Positions 8,352-57,807 of a DNA stretch of 64,000 nt are shown here, in pieces. The stretch is from positions 2,380 through 66,379 of the forward strand of contig CALRGX010000001.1 in NCBI GenBank assembly GCA_943358385.1. The letters are read 5' to 3'. The DNA comes from Parcubacteria group bacterium (GTDB taxonomy: Bacteria > Patescibacteriota > Minisyncoccia > Phycocordibacterales > UBA2100). Under the pieces are notes generated by a model. That model made no database searches, was not told the DNA's origin, and saw only the letters and a program-made list of their open reading frames with translations. Both the position numbers and the translations under genes were made by a program. Position 1 is the first letter of the stretch. Every line of letters starts with the position of its first letter.

Positions 8352-9662
8352 TCAGAGGCGACGCTCCGCACGCAAACGGGCGAGGATCTCCACGAATGAA
8401 TTGGGGCTTTCTGCAAAAATGAGGATGTCGCGAGTGGGAAATGCATACAAAAAGCGGACAGTGCCTCGTGCGTCGCGTAGGATGCGCACGTCGTAGTTTT
8501 GTACAATAACATCTTCAAACGCACGAGGAACACTCTTTCCTTCCGGGTTGGTTATCTGTGCGGGGATAGCGGTAAAAATGGGGGCGAGCTCGTCATTGAT
8601 GCTCTTTTCCCACTCAATCATCCCGGCAAATGCTCGCTCGTACACCAGTACGGGAACCACGAGTATGGGCACGTTTTCATCAAGTGCGTGCACGCCAAAG
8701 AAGAACTCATCCGAGAGAGCACGCACAAGGCTTTCAGGTGGTACTGCGCCGATGGAACGCATAAACTCCTCTGTGGTTGCCGGCCGCTGCACTGACTCAC
8801 CCAGTTCATTAGGTGTTGATATTAAAGGTGCAATGCGTGCGATGGCACCCAGAGTGAGGGCGACCTGTGTCCGTGCAAGAGCAAGCTGCTGGCGCGCTTC
8901 GCTGGCCAAACGCCCCTGTAACAAAGGAAATGCAAGCGTTTGCTCAGAGAACATAATAGAAGGGAGCGGTGGCGGTGTGTTGGTCTGCCGCTGCCCTGCG
9001 ACGAAAAACATGGCAGTCAGGGCAAGTACCCCTAAAAACACAAACGTGAGCGCAAAGATGACAACGCGGGCGATGGGTTTGCGGTCGCTCTTATGTGCAG
9101 GAGCCGGAGCGACATTATCGCGCTTCTGGCGCTTTTCCTCTTCCAGGGCCGTTGCTTTGATGAGCGACATTTTGTTGTCGTCTACCAAGCCTTGCAAGTC
9201 GTCCTTCAGGGTATGCAGTGCACGCATGTCGAACGGCTTTTCATCTACAGCGTTTAGAAGAGAGACCTCTTCTGCAGAAGGCATAACGTTCACCATCCCT
9301 GCTTTTTCTTTTTCACCCAAGGGCGTCGCACGTAGCTTTCGTTCGTGTGGTTCAGCGTCAAGTTTGGCTTTCACTTCTTCATGCTTCGCTGCGTTGTCTT
9401 TAGCATCGCGCGGGGCAAATACATTTTCGAATTGTGGCTGTACGGCTGGTTTATCAGGAGCATTTGGGCGAGCGGGGAGCTTAATTTCCTCGAGGATGCG
9501 CGCAACATCCTCGTTGAGGTTGCCGCTGTTTTCTGCCAGCTCATCAACGGCTGGTAGGGTGGGAATAGTGGGGAATGTCTGTGAGAACTTAGGTACTGGC
9601 GCTGCACTAGACTCGGTCGCCTGGGCTGCTGTTTTCTCGCTTTGGTTGTTCTCCTCGGGCAT
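8352..9662 (-). CDS. hypothetical single-pass membrane protein
   Basis: Pro/Glu-rich N-terminal region, one TM helix (IARVVIFALTFVFLGVLALTAMFFVAG) and a ~200-aa C-terminal domain. The upstream start overlaps the pnp 3' end by 56 nt, so an internal Met (around 9296) may be the real start. Confidence 0.5.
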   Translation of the reverse strand: MPEENNQSEKTAAQATESSAAPVPKFSQTFPTIPTLPAVDELAENSGNLNEDVARILEEIKLPARPNAPDKPAVQPQFENVFAPRDAKDNAAKHEEVKAKLDAEPHERKLRATPLGEKEKAGMVNVMPSAEEVSLLNAVDEKPFDMRALHTLKDDLQGLVDDNKMSLIKATALEEEKRQKRDNVAPAPAHKSDRKPIARVVIFALTFVFLGVLALTAMFFVAGQRQTNTPPPLPSIMFSEQTLAFPLLQGRLASEARQQLALARTQVALTLGAIARIAPLISTPNELGESVQRPATTEEFMRSIGAVPPESLVRALSDEFFFGVHALDENVPILVVPVLVYERAFAGMIEWEKSINDELAPIFTAIPAQITNPEGKSVPRAFEDVIVQNYDVRILRDARGTVRFLYAFPTRDILIFAESPNSFVEILARLRAERRL

Positions 9663-13984: not shown

Positions 13985-14168
13985 CCCGCCCCATGGGGCC
14001 GAAGGACCGTAAAATCCTTACTCTCTATGATTTTAGGTGTAAGTGCCACCTATCTCAACCATGCTGCAAGCTCGTTCTGTTCAGTATATAAAATCTGCGG
14101 CAGACATTAGCCGCTTTGCTTTCGACTCAGGAAAAATATTGTGCGACGCCCCATGCTATGCTTTTTGT

Positions 14169-15083
14169 ATGGCGAGTAAATCCCCTATTGAAGAATATAA
14201 GCAGCAGTTTTTGGAATATGTGGAAATTGAGCGGGGCAGATCGGTAAAAACCGTTGAAAACTATGACCATTACCTCACTCGATTCTTTGAACAGGCAAAA
14301 GTAAGGCGCCCCGAAGACATTTCACATAGTACCGTACGAAAATTTCGTATTTGGTTGAATCGCCAAGACGGTACTACGGGAAGCCTAAAAAAACGCACTC
14401 AAAACTACTACCTAATCGCACTGCGCGCTTTTTTAAAGTATCTGCGCAAACACAACATTAAGACGCTCCAGCCCGAGACGATTGAGTTGGCAAAACTTCC
14501 TGACAGAGAGATCGACATGATAAGCGAATCTGACCTCATGCGCCTATTAAAAGCTCCTGAAGGTAGTTCCCTTTCCGTATTGCGCGACCGAGCCATCCTT
14601 GAAACGCTCTTTTCTACAGGTTTGCGTGTCTCTGAGCTCACTTCTCTTAATCAAGACATTGATTTGTCGCGCGACGAAATAACAGTACGAGGAAAGGGTG
14701 AAAAACTGCGCGTGGTATTTTTCTCTCCCACGGCAAAGGCTGCTATAGCGCACTACCTTAAGCAAAGGGATGATTTCGACGAGGCGCTCTTTGTGCAATA
14801 CGGGAAAAACCTGAAGCAAGCAAAAGAGCGGCGCCTCACTCCGCGCTCGGTAGAGCGAATGGTGAAGAAGTACGCCATAAAAGCAGGTATAACCAAGAAG
14901 GTGACACCCCATATCGTGCGGCACAGTTTTGCAACAGATTTGTTGCAAAACGGTGCGGATATACGTAGTGTCCAGGTACTCTTGGGGCACGCCAGTATCA
15001 ACACCACCCAGATTTACACGCACGTCACTGACAAGCACCTCCGTGAGATTCATAGCAAATTCCACGGCAAACGCCGCTCGTAG
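14169..15083 (+). CDS. tyrosine site-specific recombinase (XerC/XerD family)
   Basis: N-terminal SAM-like domain and C-terminal catalytic residues in RHSFATDLL...LGHASINTTQIYTHV. Start set at MASKSP. Confidence 0.8.
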   Translation: MASKSPIEEYKQQFLEYVEIERGRSVKTVENYDHYLTRFFEQAKVRRPEDISHSTVRKFRIWLNRQDGTTGSLKKRTQNYYLIALRAFLKYLRKHNIKTLQPETIELAKLPDREIDMISESDLMRLLKAPEGSSLSVLRDRAILETLFSTGLRVSELTSLNQDIDLSRDEITVRGKGEKLRVVFFSPTAKAAIAHYLKQRDDFDEALFVQYGKNLKQAKERRLTPRSVERMVKKYAIKAGITKKVTPHIVRHSFATDLLQNGADIRSVQVLLGHASINTTQIYTHVTDKHLREIHSKFHGKRRS

Positions 15084-17505: not shown

Positions 17506-18972
17506 CTATACAACCTTGTATTTTTTTCTCAGCAAGGCAATCTCTTTTTCGTCTTCCTCAGATCGTCTATCCTTCCCCGCCTCCCCTACAATCCGCAGCT
17601 CCTCTTCTGGAAGGGCGAGTAGTGCAAGGGTGCGTTCTTCCAGGTATTGTTCGGTGTTTTTTATGGGATCATCGAGCACTTCTTCAAGGAGCGCATGTAG
17701 CACCCAACCCAGGCGTTTACTTGGTTTCTCGCTACTTATTGCCATAATGCGGGCGCCGTCTATTTTCAACATAGCGACCGAAATAGGATCTCGGAGCGCT
17801 TCTTCCACCATAGAAATGTATTTTCGCAGTCGAAAAGGTTGCTCTTTGGGCCGTCCGGTGCCAATACGGTCACAAATGCGCAGATTAAGAAGGTCCCAGA
17901 TCCTCTTCTCCCCCACGTTTGCGATGGTACGGCGGACGGCTGATAGGCTTATTTCATCCGGGTCTGAAAAGAACATGTGCCAGCGTATCAGGGAAACTAC
18001 TTCCTCTGAAATTTCCTTCGAAAAATGCAGGTTCTGCAGTATTTTTCTGGCCATTTTGGCCCCAACCACTTCGTGGCCATGGAAAGACCAGTCGTTCTTT
18101 TTAGCGTCGTGGGCGCGTGTGCGTGGCTTGCCAATGTCATGGAGAAGTGCCGCAAGACGCACCGGAAGGGGCCATTTCTTGTCAGCCGCATGCTGCAGAC
18201 TACGGAGAAGGTGCTCGAATACGTCAAAAGCATGTGCTTGATTCTGCGAGCAACCTATGCCTTCTTCGAGTTCGGGAATAATGTGGCTCAGAAGGCCGAC
18301 TTTTTGGGCAATGTAGAGTGCCTGCATAGGGGCGTCAGTGTTCAAAATTTTAACCAACTCATCACGGATACGCTCTTTTGATATCTTCCCCAACTGTGGT
18401 GCATTTTCAGCGATGCCTGCGAGTGTGCTGGGTTCAATAGTAAAACCAAGCTCCGCGGAGAGACGGATGGCGCGCATCATGCGGAGTGCATCTTCAGCAA
18501 AACGGGTACGAGCCTCCCCCACTGTGCGAAGCGTTTTGCGTCCAATGTCTTCAATTCCTTCATGCAGGTCGACGATTTCTTCCTTGAGTGGCTCGTACGC
18601 AATTGCATTAACCGTGAAATCACGTCTGCGGAGGTCCTCTACGATGGTGTCAGCAAATCGAATGTCGTCCGGGCGGCGTGCGTCACTGTACTTCCCCTCC
18701 TCGCGATATGGTGTTATTTCGATGATGCTTAGTCTGGGGTCGGTGCTCTCTGTTTTGACCCCCACTGTGCCAAATGTATTTTCATAGAATGAGTCCGGAA
18801 AGACTTCCTGTATCTGTTCAGGGTTGGCATTTGTGGTGATATCCCAATCTTTGGGCTCTTTTCCTATGAGTAGGTCTCGCACACAACCACCAATCAGATA
18901 TCCCTCATAGCCGGCGGCAGCAAGCTTCTCCGAAACGATGCGGACTTCGGTCGGGACGTCGAGCTTTCGCAT
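17506..18972 (-). CDS. cca: CCA-adding tRNA nucleotidyltransferase with HD domain
   Basis: Poly(A) polymerase head domain motifs GGCVRDLLIG and DWDITT, plus an HD domain (HD...LLHDIGK). Confidence 0.85.
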   Translation of the reverse strand: MRKLDVPTEVRIVSEKLAAAGYEGYLIGGCVRDLLIGKEPKDWDITTNANPEQIQEVFPDSFYENTFGTVGVKTESTDPRLSIIEITPYREEGKYSDARRPDDIRFADTIVEDLRRRDFTVNAIAYEPLKEEIVDLHEGIEDIGRKTLRTVGEARTRFAEDALRMMRAIRLSAELGFTIEPSTLAGIAENAPQLGKISKERIRDELVKILNTDAPMQALYIAQKVGLLSHIIPELEEGIGCSQNQAHAFDVFEHLLRSLQHAADKKWPLPVRLAALLHDIGKPRTRAHDAKKNDWSFHGHEVVGAKMARKILQNLHFSKEISEEVVSLIRWHMFFSDPDEISLSAVRRTIANVGEKRIWDLLNLRICDRIGTGRPKEQPFRLRKYISMVEEALRDPISVAMLKIDGARIMAISSEKPSKRLGWVLHALLEEVLDDPIKNTEQYLEERTLALLALPEEELRIVGEAGKDRRSEEDEKEIALLRKKYKVV

Positions 18973-19119
18973 GGGAGCATTGTAGTACTTTTGTTGTATT
19001 TGGGCGACTTCAAGCGTATCATTGTGGCCAGCGAGGATCGAAGTGAAAATTGTGATGCAACTTTCACTTCGTCCGAGCGAAGACGCAAAGAGGTCTGGAC
19101 AAACGCCTTATTGTGCCGC

Positions 19120-19191
19120 GCTCCCGTGGTGAAACGGATATCACGACTGACTTCGGATCAGTTGTTCCAGGTTCGAGTCCTGGCGGGAGCA
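19120..19191 (+). tRNA. tRNA-Arg (anticodon TCG)
   Basis: Manual cloverleaf fold: acceptor GCTCCCG/CGGGAGC, D-stem GTGA/TCAC, anticodon stem ACTGA/TCAGT with loop CTTCGGA, T-arm CCAGG-TTCGAGT-CCTGG, discriminator A. No encoded CCA. Confidence 0.8.
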
Positions 19192-19247
19192 CAAAACGAA
19201 GAAGCTGGATGCATAAGCATTCAGCAATTTTCGTTTTGTAGCCACGA

Positions 19248-19388
19248 CCAGGACTCGAAAGGCGGAGCTCGAATGAATACCGAGTGATATGCGGTAGAAA
19301 ACGAGCGAGCCAGGGCAGGAGCCACTTTCTCGAGCGCGGAGCTTCCGAGAGATTAGTGAGTTGCGCCGAGTCCTGGCGGGAGCACAAG
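19248..19388 (+). repeat. tRNA-associated conserved noncoding module, copy A (downstream of tRNA-Arg)
   Basis: In order: antisense T-arm segment ccaggactcgaa, then a conserved core (aggcggagctcgaatgaataccgag ... ggtagaaaacgagcgagc ... ccactttctcgagcgcggagcttccgagagattagtgagttgcgccga), then a direct repeat of the tRNA-Arg 3' end (gagtcctggcgggagcacaa). The core is near-identical to the copy at 26495-26673. Confidence 0.65.
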
Positions 19389-19612
19389 ACGAGAAAAGTG
19401 TGGCTATTTTGTATAAGGCCAAATACGACGCCCCACTGAAGGGAGATCGTCCCAGAATCGCTGGCTTTTGTCTCGGCCTGAGGCCTAACAAAAGACCTTG
19501 CGTTCTTGGACGGCGCCTCGGATGTTTTGCTCATGGTGCTCGCAAAACATATCCTGCGACGCTTCGATTCTCCACGGAAAGTGCGTAGGCACTTTCCTCT
19601 GCGCCGACTGCT

Positions 19613-19650
19613 ACAAAACTAAAGCTGCCTTGTAGGCAGCTTTAGTTTTG
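19613..19650 (-). terminator. terminator hairpin downstream of tRNA-Gly(GCC)
   Basis: aaaactaaagctgcc-ttgt-aggcagctttagtttt, a perfect 15-bp stem. Confidence 0.6.
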
Positions 19651-19654
19651 GCAG

Positions 19655-19725
19655 TGCGGGCAGGGAGAATCGAACTCCCGACTCATCCTTGGCAAGGACG
19701 TGTTATACCACTTAACCATGCCCGC
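19655..19725 (-). tRNA. tRNA-Gly (anticodon GCC)
   Basis: Reverse-strand fold: acceptor GCGGGCA/TGCCCGC, D-arm GTTA-AGTGGTA-TAAC, anticodon stem CGTCC/GGATG with loop TTGCCAA, T-arm GGGAG-TTCGATT-CTCCC. Confidence 0.8.
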
Positions 19726-19810
19726 AGCCCCCGCATATTCTCACACTATGCGGAGCTGTTCAACTCCATACCGGTGTATTCTCACACAAAGAACGGTGTT
19801 TGGCCCATCC

Positions 19811-21282: not shown

Positions 21283-21663
21283 CGTTTCACGTGAAAGCTT
21301 GGCTCGATTTTCCATTGTTTTCACATGAAACGAAACAAGGTGGCGGTCGAGTATAATAGAAACAAATCTATGTCTAAGAGAGAAACCAAGCATATTGGCG
21401 ATCTGGGCGAATCAATTGCTTGCAAATTTTTATTGCAGAAGGGTTACAAAATAGTAGAGCGCAATTTCCGTATTAAAGCGGGGGAGATTGATATTATTGC
21501 CAAGAAGGGCCCAAGGATTCATTTTGTTGAGGTTAAAGCAGTTTCACGTGAAAGTGCCCATTCGGCAGCAAAGACGCACGACCATAGACCAGAAGAGCTG
21601 GTTCATTCAAAAAAGGTACGCAAAATAAGAGCAGTAGCTGAATTCTATCTAGTTTCACGTGAA
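21283..21663. promoter_or_regulatory. four copies of the palindrome GTTTCACGTGAAA(C/G/T) around and inside yraN
   Basis: Perfect 13-mers at about 21285, 21541 and 21651, plus the variant ttttcacatgaaac at about 21313 overlapping the -35 region of a TATAAT (21352-21357) promoter. Confidence 0.45.
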
Positions 21664-21762
21664 ATCAGTTTATCCGCACAGATCGATGTAGTTGCTGTCG
21701 AGATCGAAAAAAGCGCGCAGAGAGCCTCCTGCAGGCTTATAGAGCACGCTGAGTGGTTATAA
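21370..21762 (+). CDS. yraN: YraN-family (UPF0102) endonuclease-like protein
   Basis: GESIACKFLLQKGYKIVERNFRIKAGEIDIIAKKGPRIHFVEVKA matches the YraN/UPF0102 core. Start set at MSKRETKH after a TATAAT box. Confidence 0.75.
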   Translation: MSKRETKHIGDLGESIACKFLLQKGYKIVERNFRIKAGEIDIIAKKGPRIHFVEVKAVSRESAHSAAKTHDHRPEELVHSKKVRKIRAVAEFYLVSREISLSAQIDVVAVEIEKSAQRASCRLIEHAEWL

Positions 21763-21839: not shown

Positions 21840-21910
21840 CGGGGCGTAGTATACCGGTAGTACGTCTGGTTTGGGACCAGATAGACCGAGTTCGATTCTC
21901 GGCGCCCCGA
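21840..21910 (+). tRNA. tRNA-Pro (anticodon TGG)
   Basis: Acceptor CGGGGCG/CGCCCCG, D-arm GTAT-ACCGGTA-GTAC, anticodon stem TCTGG/CCAGA with loop TTTGGGA, T-arm CCGAG-TTCGATT-CTCGG, discriminator A. Confidence 0.8.
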
Positions 21911-22150
21911 CACGAAATAGAGCGATTGAAAATAAGTCAGTGCTGCCGAGCGTACTGTCTAGCATGCTGGGTTCCCGGGGTTTGCTACGAGAACGTCGCT
22001 AGTAACAGGTAAAAGGACCATCCTGAATGCAAGATTTTGTGAGGCTTAAGGCCGAACTCAAAACCTGGAATTCTGGCAATTCTCTGCAGCCAGACAAAAT
22101 TCAGGTACGTCTTATCCAATTGCTTTACCAAATCTCGGCCTAATATAGAG

Positions 22151-26369: not shown

Positions 26370-26440
26370 GCGGGGTTAGTTTAGTGGTAAAACGAGAGTT
26401 TTCCAAACTTTTGTCGGGAGTTCGATTCTCCCACCCCGCA
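26370..26440 (+). tRNA. tRNA-Gly (anticodon TCC)
   Basis: Acceptor GCGGGGT/ACCCCGC, D-arm GTTT-AGTGGTA-AAAC, anticodon stem AGAGT/ACTTT (one G-U pair) with loop TTTCCAA, T-arm GGGAG-TTCGATT-CTCCC, discriminator A. Confidence 0.75.
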
Positions 26441-26494
26441 CTGAAACAGGAAGCCCTACATGTATATGTAGGGCGACCTTGTTTCCGTAGCGAC

Positions 26495-26673
26495 GGGTGG
26501 AGAATCGAAAAGCGGAGCTCGAATGAATACCGAGCACAGCGAGGTAGAAAACGAGCGAGCTCGGCGTAGGTTTTCTTATATGCACGCTTTTAGAAAACCA
26601 AGTGCAAAGCTCAGGAACCACTTTCTCGAGTGCGAAGCTTGCGAGAGATTAGTGAGTTGCGCCGATTCTCCCA
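26495..26673 (+). repeat. tRNA-associated conserved noncoding module, copy B (downstream of tRNA-Gly-TCC)
   Basis: Antisense T-arm segment gggtggagaatcgaa, the same conserved core as copy A with a 45-nt hairpin insertion, then a direct repeat of the tRNA 3' portion (cgattctccca). It is followed by a strong terminator. Confidence 0.65.
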
Positions 26674-26675
26674 AT

Positions 26676-26710
26676 AAAACAAGGCGACAGCTCTGCTGTC
26701 GCCTTGTTTT
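26676..26710. terminator. bidirectional terminator
   Basis: aaaacaaggcgacagc-tct-gctgtcgccttgtttt, a perfect 13-bp stem flanked by A and T runs. Confidence 0.7.
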
Positions 26711-26727
26711 ATTGAGAAGACCTCTGC

Positions 26728-37262: not shown

Positions 37263-37356
37263 ACGAAAACACTTGCTATAATCGATGTGCGCATGACGCA
37301 TGTCTTTGTAGACATGGGTACTTCTTTTGTTTGTGTTTGATGTCCGAGACTCCGCT

Positions 37357-39078
37357 ATGTACATATCCAGCCAACACTTAAAAAAATTCCTTCTTGATGC
37401 CGCGCTCGTGGGCAAATCAAATTTTGAAAACGCAGAGCGCGAAAGTGTAAAGACAGGAAAGACGGTGGGTGAGGTGCTAGTGGCCGAAGGCGAGATTGGC
37501 GAAGATGAACTACGCCGTACCTACGCATACATTCTGGGTATCCCTTTCGTCAACCTGAAAGGAACCAAGGTGGATTTCCAAACGCTCTCGATGATTCCAG
37601 AGCCGATCGCGCGCAGGAATAACATTATTGCCTACAGTCACAAGGCAGACGAGCTGGAAGTGGCGATGCTCAATACTGATGACTTGGCGTCACTCGACTT
37701 CATCAAGAAGAAGACGCGTCTCAAAATTCAGCCGCGCCTTACTGATGTGGCGTCAATCAAATCCGCACTCAAGCAGTATCAACACACACTGAACGACAAC
37801 TTGGGCGAGGTGATACGTAAAGAAACGCAGATTCTTAGCACTGGTGATGCAGAAGCACAAAAGCAAGGAGAGAGTGGTTCTGCAGTGCGCATTGTAGATA
37901 CACTCTTGCGCCACGCGATTGCGCAGAACGCTTCCGATATTCACATAGAGCCACAAGAAGAGTCGCTCGTCATTCGGTATCGTATCGACGGTATTTTGCA
38001 TGACGCCATGGTGCTGCCCAAGCAGGCAGCTGCGGCAATTACTGCGCGCGTGAAAGTCCTTTCTAATCTGCGTATTGATGAAAAGCGCCTGCCTCAAGAC
38101 GGTCGATTCGCCATCGAAGCGTCAGGAGAGAAAGTGTCATTCCGAGTCTCGATTCTCCCTGTCTACTATGGAGAAAAGATGGTGATGCGTCTTTTGCGCG
38201 AGACGGTTTCAGGATTCACACTTGAAGCACTCGGTTTTCACGGGTCAGGCCTCGAGCGCATTCACGATGCGATGCGCAAAACCACCGGTCTTATCCTCAC
38301 CACGGGCCCAACCGGCTCAGGTAAATCGACGACACTGTATACCTTGCTCGATATTTTGAACACACCAGGGGTTAACATTTCAACGGTGGAGGATCCAATC
38401 GAATATCAAATGCCGCGCGTAAATCAAACACAGGTGCGTCCTGACATTGGTTTCACGTTTGCTTCCGGACTGCGCTCCCTCGTGCGTCAAGATCCAGACA
38501 TCATTATGGTGGGTGAAATCCGTGACAAAGAGACGGCAAGCCTCGCCATTAACGCAGCACTTACCGGACACTTGGTACTTTCTACGCTACACACCAATTC
38601 CGCCGCAGGGGCGATTCCGCGTTTGATGGATATGGGCATAGAGCCTTTTCTCTTGGTCTCTACACTGCGCGTAGTGATTGGGCAACGTTTGGTGCGAAAA
38701 ATGTGTGACAAGAAAGAGCGTGCACTCACACGTGATGAGCAAACACACTTGGAACAGGTTGTTGATATCGGAACCGTGTTTAAGGCGCTGAAAGATGAAA
38801 AGGTGGTGCAAAAAGCAGAAACGTGGAAAAACATCCCGTTTTATGAGGCGGTAGAGAGTGAAGAGTGCCCTGAAGGCTTTTCTGGTCGTGTGGGTATTTA
38901 CGAAGTGCTGGGGGTGACCGAAACCATCAAGGAACTGATTATGAAGGGCGCGACGTCTGACGAGATGCACACACAGGGGCGCAAGGAGGGCATGCTCACC
39001 ATGTCTGAAGACGGTATCTTCAAGGCGGCGCAAGGAGTGAGCACGATTGAAGAAGTGTTCCGTGCGATCACTGAATAA
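37357..39078 (+). CDS. pilB: type IV pilus / type II secretion assembly ATPase (PilB/GspE family)
   Basis: GspII_E N-domain, Walker A GPTGSGKST, Asp box, His box and the tetracysteine-like motif CDKKE...CPEGFSGRVG. Confidence 0.85.
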   Translation: MYISSQHLKKFLLDAALVGKSNFENAERESVKTGKTVGEVLVAEGEIGEDELRRTYAYILGIPFVNLKGTKVDFQTLSMIPEPIARRNNIIAYSHKADELEVAMLNTDDLASLDFIKKKTRLKIQPRLTDVASIKSALKQYQHTLNDNLGEVIRKETQILSTGDAEAQKQGESGSAVRIVDTLLRHAIAQNASDIHIEPQEESLVIRYRIDGILHDAMVLPKQAAAAITARVKVLSNLRIDEKRLPQDGRFAIEASGEKVSFRVSILPVYYGEKMVMRLLRETVSGFTLEALGFHGSGLERIHDAMRKTTGLILTTGPTGSGKSTTLYTLLDILNTPGVNISTVEDPIEYQMPRVNQTQVRPDIGFTFASGLRSLVRQDPDIIMVGEIRDKETASLAINAALTGHLVLSTLHTNSAAGAIPRLMDMGIEPFLLVSTLRVVIGQRLVRKMCDKKERALTRDEQTHLEQVVDIGTVFKALKDEKVVQKAETWKNIPFYEAVESEECPEGFSGRVGIYEVLGVTETIKELIMKGATSDEMHTQGRKEGMLTMSEDGIFKAAQGVSTIEEVFRAITE

Positions 39079-39079
39079 T

Positions 39080-40297
39080 ATGGCTCGCTTTATATACACG
39101 GCACAGAAAGCAGAGGGAGAAATCTACAAGGGTATTTCTGAAGCAAAGGACAAACTCGAGTTGTTCCAGCAAATCAGGCGCGAAGGAGGGAAGGTGGTCT
39201 CGGTAAAGCTCGATACCAGCACGTCACCGTGGAGCTGGCACTACTGGAATGCAAAAATCACTACGGTGCCCGAGCACGACAAAGTGATTTTCGCTCAGAC
39301 ACTCTCGTCAATGCTCAAAGCCGGCCTCGGGCTTTCTCGCGCGCTTGCGGTGATCGAGCGACAAACACACAACCCAAAATTTTCCAGCGTTCTCTCTGAG
39401 ATTGAAAGCGACATACGTCGTGGTGCACCCTTGAATCAGGCGTTGGCTCGATTTCCCAAAGTTTTTTCAGATCTGTTTGTCTCAATGGTACGTGCTGGAG
39501 AAGAAAGTGGTGATGTGCCGGGCGCTTTGCGCACGGTAGGGAATCAGATGGAGAGTATGTACAACCTTAAGAAAAAAGTGAAAGGCGCGCTCATGTATCC
39601 GTCTATTGTACTGATTGCCATTGTAGGTATTTCTATATTGATGATCACGCAGGTAGTGCCTACACTCGCCGCCACTTTCAAGGAACTAAATGCAGATTTG
39701 CCTCGCTCAACGCAAGTCATGATTGGCATTAGCGACTTCCTCATCGGGCACAGCATTTTGGCCGTTGTGCTTACAGTCATGTTCGTCGGCGGGATTGCGA
39801 CGATTCTGAAAACAACCTGGGGAAAAATAGGAAAAGATTGGGTTGCTATCAACATGCCCCTGATTGGTCCTTTGGTAAAAGAAGTGAATGCGGCGCGTAC
39901 GGCGCGTACGTTCTCGTCTTTGGTTGCCGCTGGGGTTGATATTATTACCGCAATCTCAATCACGCGTGAAGTGGTGCAGAATAGTTTCTTTAGACGAGTA
40001 CTTGATCAGGCAGAGAAAGGGGTAAAGCAGGGCGAACCATTTTCTCGCGCATTCGCACTTAATGAACACCTGTATCCACCACTCGTCGGCGAAATGATTG
40101 CGGTAGGAGAAGAAACCGGAGATTTGAAAACGATGCTCGAGAATCTAGCTATTTTTTACGAAGAAGAGGTGTCGCGCAAAACAAAAGATATGTCGACGAT
40201 CATTGAGCCGTTCCTTATGGTGTTTATTGGTGGCGCCGTCGGTTTCTTCGCGGTATCTATGGTCTCGCCAATCTACTCGCTCTCAGATGCAATCTAG
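39080..40297 (+). CDS. pilC: type IV pilus assembly platform protein (PilC/GspF family)
   Basis: Two T2SSF repeats, three TM helices, and immediately follows pilB. Confidence 0.8.
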   Translation: MARFIYTAQKAEGEIYKGISEAKDKLELFQQIRREGGKVVSVKLDTSTSPWSWHYWNAKITTVPEHDKVIFAQTLSSMLKAGLGLSRALAVIERQTHNPKFSSVLSEIESDIRRGAPLNQALARFPKVFSDLFVSMVRAGEESGDVPGALRTVGNQMESMYNLKKKVKGALMYPSIVLIAIVGISILMITQVVPTLAATFKELNADLPRSTQVMIGISDFLIGHSILAVVLTVMFVGGIATILKTTWGKIGKDWVAINMPLIGPLVKEVNAARTARTFSSLVAAGVDIITAISITREVVQNSFFRRVLDQAEKGVKQGEPFSRAFALNEHLYPPLVGEMIAVGEETGDLKTMLENLAIFYEEEVSRKTKDMSTIIEPFLMVFIGGAVGFFAVSMVSPIYSLSDAI

Positions 40298-56310: not shown

Positions 56311-57807
56311 ATGCAGGGGCATGTTTTTTACTCAGGAGTTGCAGCTTTTTTAGTGGCAACGGCGATAGCGCTTGTGGTTCCTTTGGGTTGGTGGGAGATT
56401 GCGTGGATGGTGATGATCGGCAGTGTACTTGGTGTGGCTGCTTGGGCTATGCGTGTGCCGTACACGATGTCGCTCGTGGTTACTATCAGTTTGTGTGCAC
56501 TCGCGTGGGTGCGGGTAGCATTGCTGCCGCCAATTACACATCCGGAAATCGATGCGTTCCTCGGGCAAAAAGTGCATCTCACGGGAGAGTTGCGCGATGA
56601 GGTTGATGAACGCGAAGCAAACGCGCGATTGGCGATTCGTGTCACGCACATTGATGGAGTGGATGTGGCGCATATACAGCCGGTGCATGTTCTAGCTCTT
56701 GTTGCGCCACATCCTACAGTATCCTACGGGGACACGGTGGTAGTTGAAGGAACTCTCAAAAAGCCAGAGACATTTGAAACTGATGCAGGCCGCACATTTG
56801 ATTATCCGCAGTATCTTGCAGTGGAAGGTATTGGTTACACAATGTCATTCGGTCACATCGTGAAAACGGAAGACGGGGGTACGTCATTTCGCCGCATTCT
56901 TTTTTCAATAAAGGACCATTATCTTGATGGTATTGGGCAGACATTAGTCGAACCATATGCGGCACTCGCTGGTGGGCTCACGGTGGGTGACAAGCGCGCG
57001 CTCGGCGGAGAACTCCTTGATACGTTTCGCGATGCAGGCATCGTACACATTGTGGTACTGTCGGGTTTCAATATCACCATCATCATTGCGTTTCTTTTAG
57101 GCTGGATGAGGAACTTAAGCAAAAAAGTGCAATTGATGGTAGGAACTTTGGTCATCGTTGCGTTTGTTTTGATGACAGGAGCGTCTGCAACAGGTGTGCG
57201 TGCAGGCATTATGGCTACACTTGCGCTTTTGGCGACCGCACTCACGCGCCAGTACGCCATTATGCGCGCACTGGCGATAGCGGCCGCCGTGATGGTGCTA
57301 TGGAATCCGCGCATTCTTTTGTACGATCCTGGGTTTCAATTGTCAGTGGTTGCAACGATTGGATTAGTGACGGTGGCGCCTCGTATTGCCAAGCGTTTCC
57401 TATGGCTCACGGAGCGCTTTGGTCTGCGTGAGATTGTGGCGAGCACTATTGGTACGCAGATTGCCGTCTTGCCACTCCTCGTCTACCTCATTGGCGAAAT
57501 ATCACTTGTTGCGCTTCCAGCAAACCTGCTCGTCCTTCCTACGGTGCCGTTTGCCATGCTTCTTGCATCAGTTGCGGGGCTATACGGCATGATCGGCTTA
57601 CCATTCGCTGCCTTGATTGGGTATCCATCCTACTTATTGCTCGCGTGGATTGTATGTGTTGCTGAATGGGCTGCTGCAATGCCATTAGGTACAGTAGTTG
57701 TTCCCGCACTCCCATTGTGGATGGTGGGTAGTATGTATGCGGTCGCGTGCCTCTGGTTGATTATGCGGCCAAGCGACTCTCCACAACACTCCAATTCAGG
57801 TTCTTGA
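56311..57807 (+). CDS. comEC: ComEC/Rec2 DNA-uptake channel (DUF4131 + competence domain; no MBL domain in this gene)
   Basis: Many TM helices and the competence-domain block VHIVVLSGFNITIIIAFL. Confidence 0.8.
   Translation: MQGHVFYSGVAAFLVATAIALVVPLGWWEIAWMVMIGSVLGVAAWAMRVPYTMSLVVTISLCALAWVRVALLPPITHPEIDAFLGQKVHLTGELRDEVDEREANARLAIRVTHIDGVDVAHIQPVHVLALVAPHPTVSYGDTVVVEGTLKKPETFETDAGRTFDYPQYLAVEGIGYTMSFGHIVKTEDGGTSFRRILFSIKDHYLDGIGQTLVEPYAALAGGLTVGDKRALGGELLDTFRDAGIVHIVVLSGFNITIIIAFLLGWMRNLSKKVQLMVGTLVIVAFVLMTGASATGVRAGIMATLALLATALTRQYAIMRALAIAAAVMVLWNPRILLYDPGFQLSVVATIGLVTVAPRIAKRFLWLTERFGLREIVASTIGTQIAVLPLLVYLIGEISLVALPANLLVLPTVPFAMLLASVAGLYGMIGLPFAALIGYPSYLLLAWIVCVAEWAAAMPLGTVVVPALPLWMVGSMYAVACLWLIMRPSDSPQHSNSGS

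What the first reader, a model, noticed from the sequence alone, without database searches (positions are those of the whole stretch)
18973..19810. Conserved ~110-nt noncoding module appended to two different tRNA genes, each copy framed by the host tRNA's own T-arm
Downstream of tRNA-Arg(TCG) at 19120-19191 the sequence runs: a hairpin, the motif gtagc, an antisense copy of the Arg T-loop/T-stem (ccaggactcgaa), a core, then a 20-nt direct repeat of the tRNA-Arg 3' end (gagtcctggcgggagcacaa). The core is aggcggagctcgaatgaataccgag-N9-ggtagaaaacgagcgagc-N11-ccactttctcgagcgcggagcttccgagagattagtgagttgcgccga. The same core reappears at 26495-26673 after tRNA-Gly(TCC), which is 7 kb away and a different tRNA. 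There the flanks are replaced by the Gly T-arm antisense (gggtggagaatcgaa) and a Gly 3'-end repeat (cgattctccca). The core is therefore portable between tRNA genes, while its bracketing inverted and direct repeats are re-derived from each host tRNA. Between copies, the three substitutions within the ctcgagYgcgRagcttScgagag stretch include a C/G to T/A pair that could be a compensatory change in a stem. No ORF is conserved between copies. This fits neither a simple att-site duplication by a tRNA-targeting integrase (no integrase nearby, element about 140-180 nt, extra inverted copy) nor any ncRNA I recognise (tmRNA, RNase P, SRP, 6S, group I or II intron cores, T-box). It could be a tRNA-3'-end-targeting miniature mobile element, or a structured RNA co-transcribed with tRNAs whose closing helix must mimic the T-arm.
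Basis: seen in the sequence. Interest (0 to 1): 0.8.

Follow-up and report, generated by a model that had tools for sequence, protein, structure and literature searches.

The report
Tiny structured insertions behind tRNA genes
Three tRNA genes in this candidate-phyla-radiation bacterium carry a small protein-less DNA insertion built from a duplicated tRNA 3' end, an inverted copy of it and a conserved three-way-junction fold; it looks like an undescribed kind of tRNA-targeting mobile element.

Summary
The window (a Ca. Kaiserbacteria/Paceibacterota genome) holds three elements, not two: A after tRNA-Arg, B after tRNA-Gly(TCC), and C on the minus strand after tRNA-Gly(GCC).

All three share one layout:
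- the tRNA, whose nt 56 to 73+1 form segment X;
- a terminator-like hairpin, h1;
- X', an imperfect inverted copy of X that ends exactly at the antisense of T54;
- a structured core of 60-160 nt;
- X'', a direct repeat of X that starts exactly at C56.

Close relatives have clean empty sites, in which the tRNA is followed directly by the terminator that follows X'' in occupied sites. These are therefore 190-240-bp insertions with a roughly 19-nt duplication of the tRNA 3' end.

Five related genomes yield about 11 copies, some tandem and some decayed. They lie at three different tRNAs, and the same core type occurs at different tRNAs. All fold into one three-way junction: 94% of cells are paired and 30 of 37 pairs show double-sided changes.

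No copy was found away from a tRNA. There is no Rfam, phage or plasmid match, and no element-specific recombinase gene in the window.

Best reading: a non-autonomous, structure-dependent element that targets tRNA 3' ends. Its enzyme and mechanism are unknown.

The parts
19120..19192 (+). tRNA-Arg(TCG), intact; host of element A. CCA is not encoded.
   Evidence: ARAGORN; Rfam tRNA, 65.1 bits.
19174..19192 (+). X(A): tRNA nt C56 to discriminator+1. This is the left copy of the duplicated target.
   Evidence: Direct-repeat family D4; read in sequence.
19193..19237 (+). h1(A): terminator-like hairpin flanked by an A-tract and a T-tract. It is the apex of the X-h1-X' palindrome.
   Evidence: Terminator-like site at 19204-19225; folds.
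19238..19259 (+). X'(A): gtagccacgaccaggactcgaa, an imperfect inverted copy of the tRNA-Arg 3' end. It ends at the antisense of T54.
19248..19376 (+). Three-way-junction core of element A. P1 is 19248-19256 paired with 19368-19376; J1/2 is GAAA; P2 is 19261-19311; P3 is 19314-19367.
   Evidence: Fold z = -4.4; covariance-model hit of 157.5 bits; covariation.
19367..19392 (+). X''(A): direct repeat of the tRNA-Arg 3' end, starting at C56. It matches 25 of 26 positions, including 7 nt past the tRNA.
   Evidence: family D4.
19654..19725 (-). tRNA-Gly(GCC), intact; host of element C.
19440..19653 (-). Element C, which has a 'type-3' core. The parts are h1 at 19615-19650, GTAGC at 19610-19614, a small extra hairpin, the X' T-part gtggagaatcgaa at 19563-19575, the core, a conserved internal cgattctggga at 19450-19460, and a degenerate X'' cgatctccct at 19440-19449.
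   Evidence: Sequence; fold z = -5.5; model R2 hit at 19451-19574, E = 0.003; homologous core after tRNA-Arg in L018.
26370..26441 (+). tRNA-Gly(TCC), intact; host of element B.
26442..26486 (+). h1(B): terminator-like hairpin.
   Evidence: Terminator-like site at 26453-26474; palindrome with the tRNA 3' end.
26487..26509 (+). X'(B): gtagcgacgggtggagaatcgaa, an inverted copy of the tRNA-Gly(TCC) 3' end with three indels.
26498..26672 (+). Three-way-junction core of element B, with the same core type as A. A 46-nt extra hairpin is inserted at J2/3 (26562-26607).
   Evidence: Covariance-model hit of 135.4 bits; fold.
26663..26673 (+). X''(B): ccgattctccca. The direct repeat is truncated after the T-stem. 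The orthologous copy in L001/L009 keeps 18 of 19 nt.
26669..26717 (+). Original tRNA terminator (T0). It is homologous to the hairpin that directly follows tRNA-Gly(TCC) at the empty site in L011.
   Evidence: Inverted repeat I6; comparison with L011 and L001.

Best explanation
These are members of a family of small (about 130-240 bp), protein-less insertion elements that target the 3' part of tRNA genes in a Kaiserbacteria-like lineage of Patescibacteria.

Shown:
- Each insertion sits between two direct copies of the tRNA segment C56 to discriminator+1 (about 19 nt). The tRNA stays intact, and the original terminator is pushed downstream.
- The inserted DNA carries three parts: its own terminator-like hairpin (h1), an inverted copy of the target (X'), and a core. 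The core folds with X' and the downstream repeat X'' into a conserved three-way junction.
- That junction consists of P1 (the X':X'' helix), J1/2 = GAA(A), P2 with a G(G/C)A/GA internal loop, and P3, whose last pair uses C56.
- X' can pair either with the tRNA's own 3' end through h1, as a long palindrome, or with X''.

Inferred mechanism:
- The element is mobilised in trans by a site-specific recombinase or transposase encoded elsewhere.
- That enzyme acts at the conserved T-loop (cut or crossover 5' of C56).
- It recognises the element in a folded single-stranded form, in which the X-h1-X' hairpin imitates the duplex tRNA-gene target. This is the logic of CTX-phage attP(+) and integron attC.
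- Host-matching of X' is kept or reset by templated correction or exchange. The conserved TTCGA on one side of X and the GCAC-A-tract on the other would serve as micro-homologies.
For: Insertion status:
- L011 (CCA-enzyme 84% identical) has all four syntenic tRNAs without elements. Its tRNA-Gly(TCC) is followed directly by the GCGACAGC...GCTGTCGC terminator that follows X'' in B and B'.
- In L015, tRNA-Arg and tRNA-Gly(GCC) lie 8 nt apart.
- L019, L020, L021 and L029 are empty.

Portability:
- Type-1 cores occur at Arg, Gly(TCC) and Gly(GCC).
- Type-2 cores occur at Gly(TCC) and Gly(GCC). A third, contig-truncated element at Arg (L014) has the type-2-like h1.
- Type-3 cores occur at Gly(GCC) and Arg.
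- In every case the flanks match the host tRNA.
- The h1 hairpins of L014 (Arg), L015 (Gly TCC) and L018 (Gly GCC) are homologous to one another.

Exact boundaries: in all copies X' ends at the antisense of T54 and X'' starts at C56.

Tandem and partial units occur in L018. Decay is seen as a truncated A plus a deleted C in L009, and as a truncated X'' and an extra insert in B.

Structure:
- Covariance models built from A, B and B' retrieve the other types.
- 94.2% of cells are paired, and 30 of 37 pairs show double-sided changes, against at most 12 in slid controls.
- RNAalifold recovers the same fold.
- Only the tRNA-sense strand scores.

Hints for single-stranded DNA:
- GCGNAGC mini-hairpins are about 12-fold enriched, on the sense strand only.
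- h1 scans as an intrinsic terminator placed between the tRNA and the core.

No ORF is shared, because A and B differ by a 46-nt indel.
Against: - No recombinase, transposase, HUH, Cas1 or reverse-transcriptase gene specific to the elements was found in the 64-kb window. The only recombinase is a Xer-like gene that is also present in element-free relatives.
- No excised form, circle junction or recent identical copy was seen.
- A fixed attP-type mechanism does not by itself explain why X', which lies inside the element, matches each new host. The resetting step is speculation.
- Core identity between orthologous copies (91%) is higher than the coding identity of the two genomes (81-85%). That would also fit a selected RNA.
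- The alignments used for the pair counts were fitted by the covariance model.
- Only about 11 copies from 5 genomes were available.
Confidence: 0.45

Rival explanations
1. A functional structured RNA co-transcribed with the tRNA. Read-through transcripts would fold so that X':X'', continued into the acceptor part, forms a 12-17-bp acceptor/T-stem-like minihelix capped by a three-way junction. This RNA could be processed by RNase P, by 3' trimming and by the CCA-adding enzyme. Alternatively, the X:X' versus X':X'' choice could act as a cis switch on tRNA folding and maturation.
For: - The fold is strand-specific and always co-oriented with the tRNA.
- Covariation is strong, with conserved junction and internal-loop nucleotides.
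- Orthologous cores are 91% identical against 81-85% for coding DNA.
- Whole-transcript folds predict a 'tRNA with a giant T-loop insertion' conformer. In it the tRNA 5' acceptor and T-stem strands pair with the distal X''.
- In L014 and L018-G1, X' is a near-perfect copy of the acceptor 5' strand plus the T-stem 5' strand.
Against: - A terminator-like hairpin separates the tRNA from the core, and no promoter-like site was found.
- The elements are absent from most close relatives, and are truncated, deleted or interrupted in others.
- The acceptor part of the helix is degenerate in A, B, G1 and G2.
- Core sequences differ widely between types, which argues against one conserved ligand or partner.
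- There is no Rfam match.
Confidence: 0.25
2. A guide-bearing element. X' (20-22 nt, antisense to the tRNA 3' end), placed 5' of a conserved scaffold, would be a programmable guide, as RNA or single-stranded DNA. It would direct a trans-acting nuclease, recombinase or transposase to the tRNA gene, in the manner of bridge RNAs, omega RNAs or CAST homing guides.
For: - The same scaffold occurs with different target-matching segments at three tRNAs.
- Guide-like length and position next to a structured scaffold.
- Type-3 cores carry a fossil 'cgattctggga' (Gly/Pro-type C56-T62) just upstream of the current X''. This suggests serial retargeting.
Against: - No effector gene (DEDD recombinase, TnpB, IscB, Cas12k or Tns) is adjacent or in the window.
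- X' is predicted to be fully base-paired in cis, to X or to X''.
- There is no resemblance to bridge or omega RNA families in Rfam.
- No mechanism is known for acquiring a new guide.
Confidence: 0.15
3. By-products of local replication errors rather than a mobile element. Template switching at palindromic tRNA terminators would extend the palindrome into the tRNA 3' end (quasi-palindrome expansion). Gene conversion between loci would then spread the cores.
For: - X-h1-X' is one long imperfect palindrome.
- In L018, X''1 and X'2 co-vary with each other but not with the tRNA.
- L020 shows plain tandem duplication of the tRNA-Pro 3' end plus a hairpin, with no core.
Against: - This does not explain a conserved three-way junction with covariation across species and tRNAs.
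- It does not explain homologous h1 hairpins at three different tRNAs.
- It does not explain the identical C56 and T54 boundaries in all copies.
- It does not explain the clean empty sites.
Confidence: 0.08
4. Scars (attL-attR remnants) of larger integrase-carrying islands or prophages that integrated into the tRNA genes and were later deleted internally.
For: - A direct repeat running from the T-loop to the tRNA 3' end is the classic signature of tyrosine-integrase elements (established knowledge: Williams 2002, sublocation classes).
- Cargo ORFs of unknown function lie between the convergent tRNAs in L018, L011 and L021.
Against: - Independent deletions would not leave the same structured 60-130-nt core at different tRNAs in five genomes.
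- No gene fragments are present.
- No integrase lies nearby other than the conserved Xer-like gene.
- There is no match in phage, plasmid or viral collections.
Confidence: 0.05

Closest known systems
tRNA-targeting integrative elements of the T-loop sublocation class (P4-like tyrosine integrases) and their integrase-less derivatives (CIMEs)
   Same: - Insertion at the 3' part of a tRNA gene.
- A direct repeat running from the T-loop to the 3' end.
- The tRNA is regenerated by the element-proximal copy.
- Tandem arrays form at one tRNA.
   Different: - The elements are only 130-240 bp and have no integrase or any other gene.
- They carry an extra inverted copy of the target.
- They have a conserved three-way-junction fold.
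- The same core occurs with different tRNA specificities.
Folded single-stranded recombination sites: CTX-phage attP(+) used by XerCD, and integron attC
   Same: - Two inverted copies of a target-like sequence, separated by tens of nucleotides, can form a hairpin that imitates the duplex target.
- The integrated layout is direct copy, spacer, inverted copy, cargo, direct copy.
- Structure is conserved more than sequence, and is strand-specific.
- A conserved unpaired base is present (the extra A in GT-A-GC).
   Different: - The target is a tRNA gene, not dif or attI.
- There is no GTTRRRY or dif-like consensus.
- The cargo is a structured non-coding core, not genes.
- Dependence on any recombinase is untested.
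MITEs and REP/PATE-type small non-autonomous elements
   Same: - Small, non-coding and structured.
- Patchy among relatives, and prone to decay.
- GTAG lies just 5' of the foot of an imperfect palindrome, as in REPs.
   Different: - The inverted repeats are not family-constant; they are copied from each host tRNA.
- The duplication is about 19 nt rather than 2-10 bp.
- Target choice is strict.
- No parent IS or RAYT was found.
Programmable guide RNAs of mobile elements (IS110 bridge RNA/seekRNA, TnpB/IscB omega RNA, CAST homing crRNAs that target tRNA genes)
   Same: A conserved scaffold is joined to a variable segment that matches the insertion target. The target class (tRNA genes) is shared with type V-K CAST homing.
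   Different: - There is no associated effector gene.
- The fold is different (a three-way junction closed by guide:target-copy pairing).
- The guide is predicted to be sequestered.
- There is no Rfam similarity.

Membership tests
Any Rfam family (tmRNA, RNase P, 6S, SRP, T-box, group I/II introns, small ribozymes, HEARO/omega RNA and others) | Covariance-model match at or near the family's gathering score | tested here: not met
   Only the four tRNAs reach gathering scores. Permissive hits on the elements are far below threshold.
Tyrosine-integrase tRNA-targeting integrative element / CIME | Direct repeats made of the tRNA 3' end flank the insert, and the tRNA is restored | tested here: met
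   Repeats of 19-26 nt starting at C56 in A, B', E, G2 and H; the tRNAs score 61-70 bits.
Tyrosine-integrase tRNA-targeting integrative element / CIME | An integrase gene inside or next to the element, or a related autonomous element with the same ends | tested here: not met
   No gene lies in the elements. The only Phage_integrase gene (14043-15083) is syntenic in element-free relatives. No larger relative was found in the genome, metagenome, viral, phage or plasmid searches.
MITE | Family-constant terminal inverted repeats and a short (2-10 bp) target-site duplication | tested here: not met
   The inverted repeats X'/X'' differ with the host tRNA. The duplication is about 19 nt.
Integron attC / CTX attP(+) folded sites | An imperfect hairpin on one strand that imitates the duplex target, with conserved unpaired bases | tested here: inconclusive
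   The X-h1-X' palindrome is present, and the extra A is conserved in 7 of 10 copies. Folding as DNA is only predicted.
Integron attC / CTX attP(+) folded sites | R-box consensus GTTRRRY or dif-like arms; IntI or XerCD dependence | tested here: not met
   The T-loop GTTCGAN does not fit GTTRRRY (sequence). Enzyme dependence is not testable here.
IS110-family bridge RNA / seekRNA | Encoded at the end of an element that carries a DEDD recombinase; two internal loops carry the target and donor guides | tested here: not met
   No recombinase ORF is in or beside the elements. The fold is a three-way junction without such loops.
TnpB/IscB omega RNA | Overlaps or abuts a tnpB or iscB gene; a scaffold plus a flank-derived guide | tested here: not met
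   No tnpB or iscB in the window. X'' is flank-derived, but it is base-paired into P1.
Group I / group II intron | Intron catalytic core; interruption of the host gene | tested here: not met
   No Rfam intron hit. The tRNA upstream is complete. Patescibacterial tRNA introns described so far are group I introns in the anticodon loop, and group II introns were not found in the phylum (PMC13011429).
REP / RAYT | GTAG-type head plus an imperfect palindrome; many dispersed copies; a RAYT gene | tested here: inconclusive
   GTAG/GTAA occurs 5' of the palindrome foot in 7 of 10 copies. All copies are tRNA-linked, and no HUH gene is in the window. Whole genomes were not available.
Casposon / Cas1-type integration | Long target duplication at a tRNA 3' end, terminal inverted repeats, and a Cas1 gene | tested here: not met
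   A long duplication at the tRNA 3' end is present. There is no Cas1 or polymerase gene, and the inverted repeats are host-derived.

The most novel reading that the evidence does not exclude
A protein-less mobile element whose target is specified by nucleic-acid pairing. The inverted target copy X' would act as a resettable guide (as RNA or single-stranded DNA) held in a conserved three-way-junction scaffold. The same scaffold could then be re-aimed at different tRNA genes. That would be a new class of programmable, tRNA-homing element exploiting a host or trans-encoded enzyme.
Probability: 0.15. Interest if true: 0.9.

Novelty: new variant of a known kind. Interest (0 to 1): 0.72.

Why it matters
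If this is a mobile element, it is a minimal one: under 250 bp and with no gene. It still homes precisely into the T-loop of different tRNA genes without damaging them.

Its distinguishing feature is an internal inverted copy of each target, next to a fold that covaries across species. This raises a directly testable question: how can a tiny element carry, and reset, target information?

The element occurs in reduced CPR genomes, where the mobilome is poorly known and group II introns are reported absent.

There are practical consequences too. The elements create partial tRNA 3'-end copies and long palindromes that appear to break assemblies next to tRNA genes. They could also be mis-annotated as att scars or as small RNAs.

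Tried and rejected
- Rfam at gathering and permissive thresholds found nothing but tRNAs.
- An exact-pattern scan of GTDB genomes with the core found only one relative, L001.
- The metagenome scan gave seven chance hits in unrelated, mostly coding DNA.
- Four viral-contig scans gave nothing, or chance hits in coding DNA with no tRNA nearby.
- Phage and plasmid blastn found no match.
- A plain MAFFT alignment of all types was structurally inconsistent. It was replaced by covariance-model alignments.
- A hand-written descriptor search was barely above shuffled background (9 hits against 5-7). It was used only as a sanity check.
- A possible fourth element after tRNA-Pro (21912-22100) was examined. 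The window has about 170 extra nt compared with L009 and L011, plus a 14-of-19 match to the tRNA-Pro 3' end. However, the fold z-score is only -1.85 and the models give no hit, so it was not counted.
- Hammerhead, twister and other small ribozymes, group II domain V, retron msr/msd and permuted tmRNA were considered from the sequence and dropped. There is no consensus core, no RT gene and no ARAGORN or Rfam call.
- Proteins near the elements in relatives (L018 109 aa and 214 aa, L015 236 aa, L020 203 aa, L021 224 aa) have no informative Pfam domain.
- Literature searches found no description of such elements.
Full report
**1. Check of the observation**

ARAGORN and Rfam find four tRNA genes: Arg(TCG) at 19120-19192 (+), Gly(GCC) at 19654-19725 (-), Pro(TGG) at 21840-21911 (+) and Gly(TCC) at 26370-26441 (+). 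None encodes CCA. A CCA-adding enzyme gene lies next to tRNA-Arg (17506-18972).

The repeat finder recovers the two halves of the shared core: 19252-19310 against 26502-26560 at 85%, and 19316-19372 against 26612-26668 at 91%. It also recovers the 26-nt direct repeat of the tRNA-Arg 3' end (19174-19199 against 19367-19392, 25 of 26).

The flanks are host-specific rather than generic T-arm matches. The organism is a Ca. Kaiserbacteria/Paceibacterota bacterium of the Patescibacteria (record title; source names).

**2. Anatomy**

Reading the region on both strands showed a third element (C) inside the reported interval. It lies on the minus strand after tRNA-Gly(GCC) and has the same layout but a different core.

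The common layout has five parts:
- **X.** This is tRNA nt 56 to discriminator+1.
- **h1.** This is a roughly 45-nt hairpin flanked by an A-tract and a T-tract. It scans as an intrinsic terminator.
- **X'.** This is an imperfect inverted copy of the whole tRNA 3' end. It starts with GT(A)GC, which is the antisense of GC-A-C plus one extra A. It ends exactly at the antisense of T54.
- **The core.**
- **X''.** This is a direct repeat of X that starts exactly at C56.

X, h1 and X' form one long imperfect palindrome.

**3. They are insertions**

Syntenic loci were fetched through homologues of the CCA-adding enzyme.
- L011 (84% protein identity) has all four tRNAs without any element. Its tRNA-Gly(TCC) is followed directly by a terminator homologous to the hairpin that follows X'' in B and in the orthologous copy B' of L001/L009.
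- L015 has tRNA-Arg and tRNA-Gly(GCC) only 8 nt apart.
- L009 keeps B' intact. One deletion there removed most of C and the 3' half of A, and the remaining part of A has decayed.
- The inserted DNA measures 193 bp in A, 240 bp in B and about 223 bp in C.

**4. A family with portable cores**

The same architecture, with other cores, occurs in three more loci:
- after tRNA-Gly(TCC) in L015, with a roughly 60-nt core and a perfect 19-nt repeat;
- after tRNA-Arg in L014, where the contig end cuts it;
- in L018, where elements are tandem. Two lie after tRNA-Gly(GCC). One full element plus partial units lie after tRNA-Arg.

The L018 tRNA-Arg element has the core type of window element C. The first L018 tRNA-Gly(GCC) element has the core type of A and B. 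Each core type therefore occurs at more than one tRNA, always with host-matching X' and X''.

The h1 hairpins at three different tRNAs in three genomes are homologous to one another. This indicates that h1 travels with the element.

Type-3 cores carry a conserved 'cgattctggga' just upstream of the current X''. It looks like a fossil of an earlier Gly/Pro-type X''.

Four other species, some represented by several strains, have no elements at these tRNAs.

**5. Structure**

Each element folds far better than shuffled controls (z from -2.6 to -5.5).

Individual folds of eight copies, with RNA or DNA parameters, give the same three-way junction:
- P1 is the T-part of X' paired with X'' (9-10 bp).
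- J1/2 is GAA(A).
- P2 has a 3-5-bp base, an internal loop of 5'-G(G/C)A against 5'-GA, and a variable hairpin.
- J2/3 is 0-2 nt.
- The last pair of P3 uses C56 of X''.

A covariance model built from A, B and B' alone finds four further copies:

| Copy | E-value |
|---|---|
| L018, first element after tRNA-Gly(GCC) | 9e-10 |
| L018, second element after tRNA-Gly(GCC) | 1e-8 |
| L015 | 6e-6 |
| L009 truncated copy | 4e-8 |

A second model adds the L018 tRNA-Arg element (E = 8e-6), a further partial unit (E = 6e-5) and window element C (E = 0.003). The E-values are rough.

No credible hit lies away from a tRNA 3' end in about 480 kb.

Pair counts on the eight full copies:

| Measure | Real structure | Slid controls |
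|---|---|---|
| Cells forming standard pairs | 94.2% | 31-47% |
| Pairs with changes on both sides | 30 of 37 | at most 12 |

RNAalifold predicts the same consensus. One caveat applies: the alignment was fitted by the model.

G.U pairs far outnumber A.C mismatches, and the reverse strand scores about 8 bits. The tRNA-sense strand is therefore the one that folds.

**6. Alternative pairing**

Folding the whole tRNA plus element gives the same result for A and for L015. X pairs with X' through h1. The tRNA's 5' acceptor strand and T-stem 5' strand pair with the distal X''. The result is a 'tRNA with a giant T-loop insertion'. X' therefore has two mutually exclusive partners.

**7. What it is not**

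- There is no Rfam family match.
- There is no similar DNA in phage, plasmid or viral collections.
- The exact core is limited to the window genome and one relative.
- No ORF is conserved, because A and B differ by a 46-nt indel.
- The window encodes housekeeping genes, competence and pilus genes, and one Xer-like recombinase. That recombinase is also present in element-free relatives. There is no transposase, HUH, Cas1, DEDD, TnpB or reverse-transcriptase gene.
- The only related literature found describes group I introns in anticodon loops of patescibacterial tRNAs, and reports no group II introns in the phylum.

**8. Interpretation**

Shown:
- These are insertions specific to tRNA 3' ends.
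- About 19 nt of target is duplicated, from C56.
- The tRNA is preserved.
- Structured cores are portable between tRNAs.
- Tandem arrays and decay occur.

Inferred: mobilisation in trans by an unknown site-specific enzyme acting at the conserved T-loop. It probably acts on a folded single strand in which X-h1-X' imitates the duplex target.

The layout (direct copy, spacer, inverted copy, cargo, direct copy) is what integration of a folded hairpin site produces in CTX phage. That comparison rests on established knowledge and was not tested here.

Two further observations lean towards a DNA-level role. GCGNAGC mini-hairpins are enriched on the sense strand. A terminator-like hairpin stands in front of the core.

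The weakest point is how X' comes to match each new host. I propose templated correction or exchange, using the conserved TTCGA and GCAC-A-tract micro-homologies. This is speculation.

The rivals are scored in the report sections. They are a selected co-transcribed RNA, a true guide function of X', replication by-products, and island scars.

**9. Verdict**

The nearest known kinds are tRNA-targeting integrative elements and folded-DNA recombination sites. The protein-less size, the internal inverted target copy and the conserved three-way junction have no described counterpart that I could find.

Noticed in passing
window 21912-22100 (+), after tRNA-Pro: The window has about 170 nt here that L009 and L011 lack. 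The stretch includes a 14-of-19 match to the tRNA-Pro 3' end at 22077-22095 and a possible degenerate inverted copy near 21975-21995. The fold z-score is only -1.85, and the covariance models give no hit. It may be an old, decayed fourth element.
   Followed up: partly
L020 7276-7418 (-), after tRNA-Pro: There are 3.3 tandem copies of a 43-nt unit, 98% identical. Each unit is a small hairpin (CCACCgtaaGGTGG) plus the tRNA-Pro 3' end from the T-loop onward. There is no inverted copy and no core. This is a different, simpler duplication of a tRNA 3' end in the same clade.
   Followed up: partly
L010, L012, L013, L016, L017, L034 (contig ends 86-362 nt upstream of the CCA-enzyme gene): Many independent assemblies of relatives break at the tRNA-Arg / CCA-enzyme boundary. 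This suggests that repeated or palindromic sequence there fragments assemblies.
   Followed up: no
window 26562-26607 (+): A 46-nt extra hairpin (GGTTTTCT...AGAAAACC) is inserted at junction J2/3 of element B. It is absent from A and from the orthologous copy B'. Its origin is unknown.
   Followed up: no
window 19450-19460 (-) and L018 about 9637-9647 (-): Type-3 cores share 'cgattctggga' immediately upstream of the current X''. It resembles C56-T62 of a Gly/Pro-type T-arm, even in the copy that sits at tRNA-Arg. It may be a fossil of an earlier host.
   Followed up: partly
L018 7760-9420; L011 8595-9791; L021 9245-9919: In several relatives the gap between the convergent tRNA-Gly(GCC) and tRNA-Arg holds variable small ORFs. 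They comprise proteins of 109, 214, 72 and 224 aa, of which the 109-, 214- and 224-aa ones were scanned and have no informative Pfam domain, and a TrmB-like regulator. The gap seems to be a hotspot for insertion of cargo.
   Followed up: partly
elements in window, L009, L014, L018: The heptamer GCGNAGC is known as an exceptionally stable DNA mini-hairpin. It occurs 10 times in 1852 nt of element sequence, on the sense strand only, against 0.46 per kb in the background. Eight of the ten are in or next to hairpin loops.
   Followed up: partly
window 21325-21762 (+): A UPF0102/NERD-like (YraN-type, nuclease-fold) gene lies immediately upstream of tRNA-Pro. It is syntenic in all relatives, with or without elements.
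   Followed up: no
window 37327-40297 and 56311-57807: Type IV pilus ATPase and platform genes and a ComEC-like competence gene are present. This is DNA-uptake machinery that brings in single-stranded DNA, which is relevant if the elements act as single strands.
   Followed up: no
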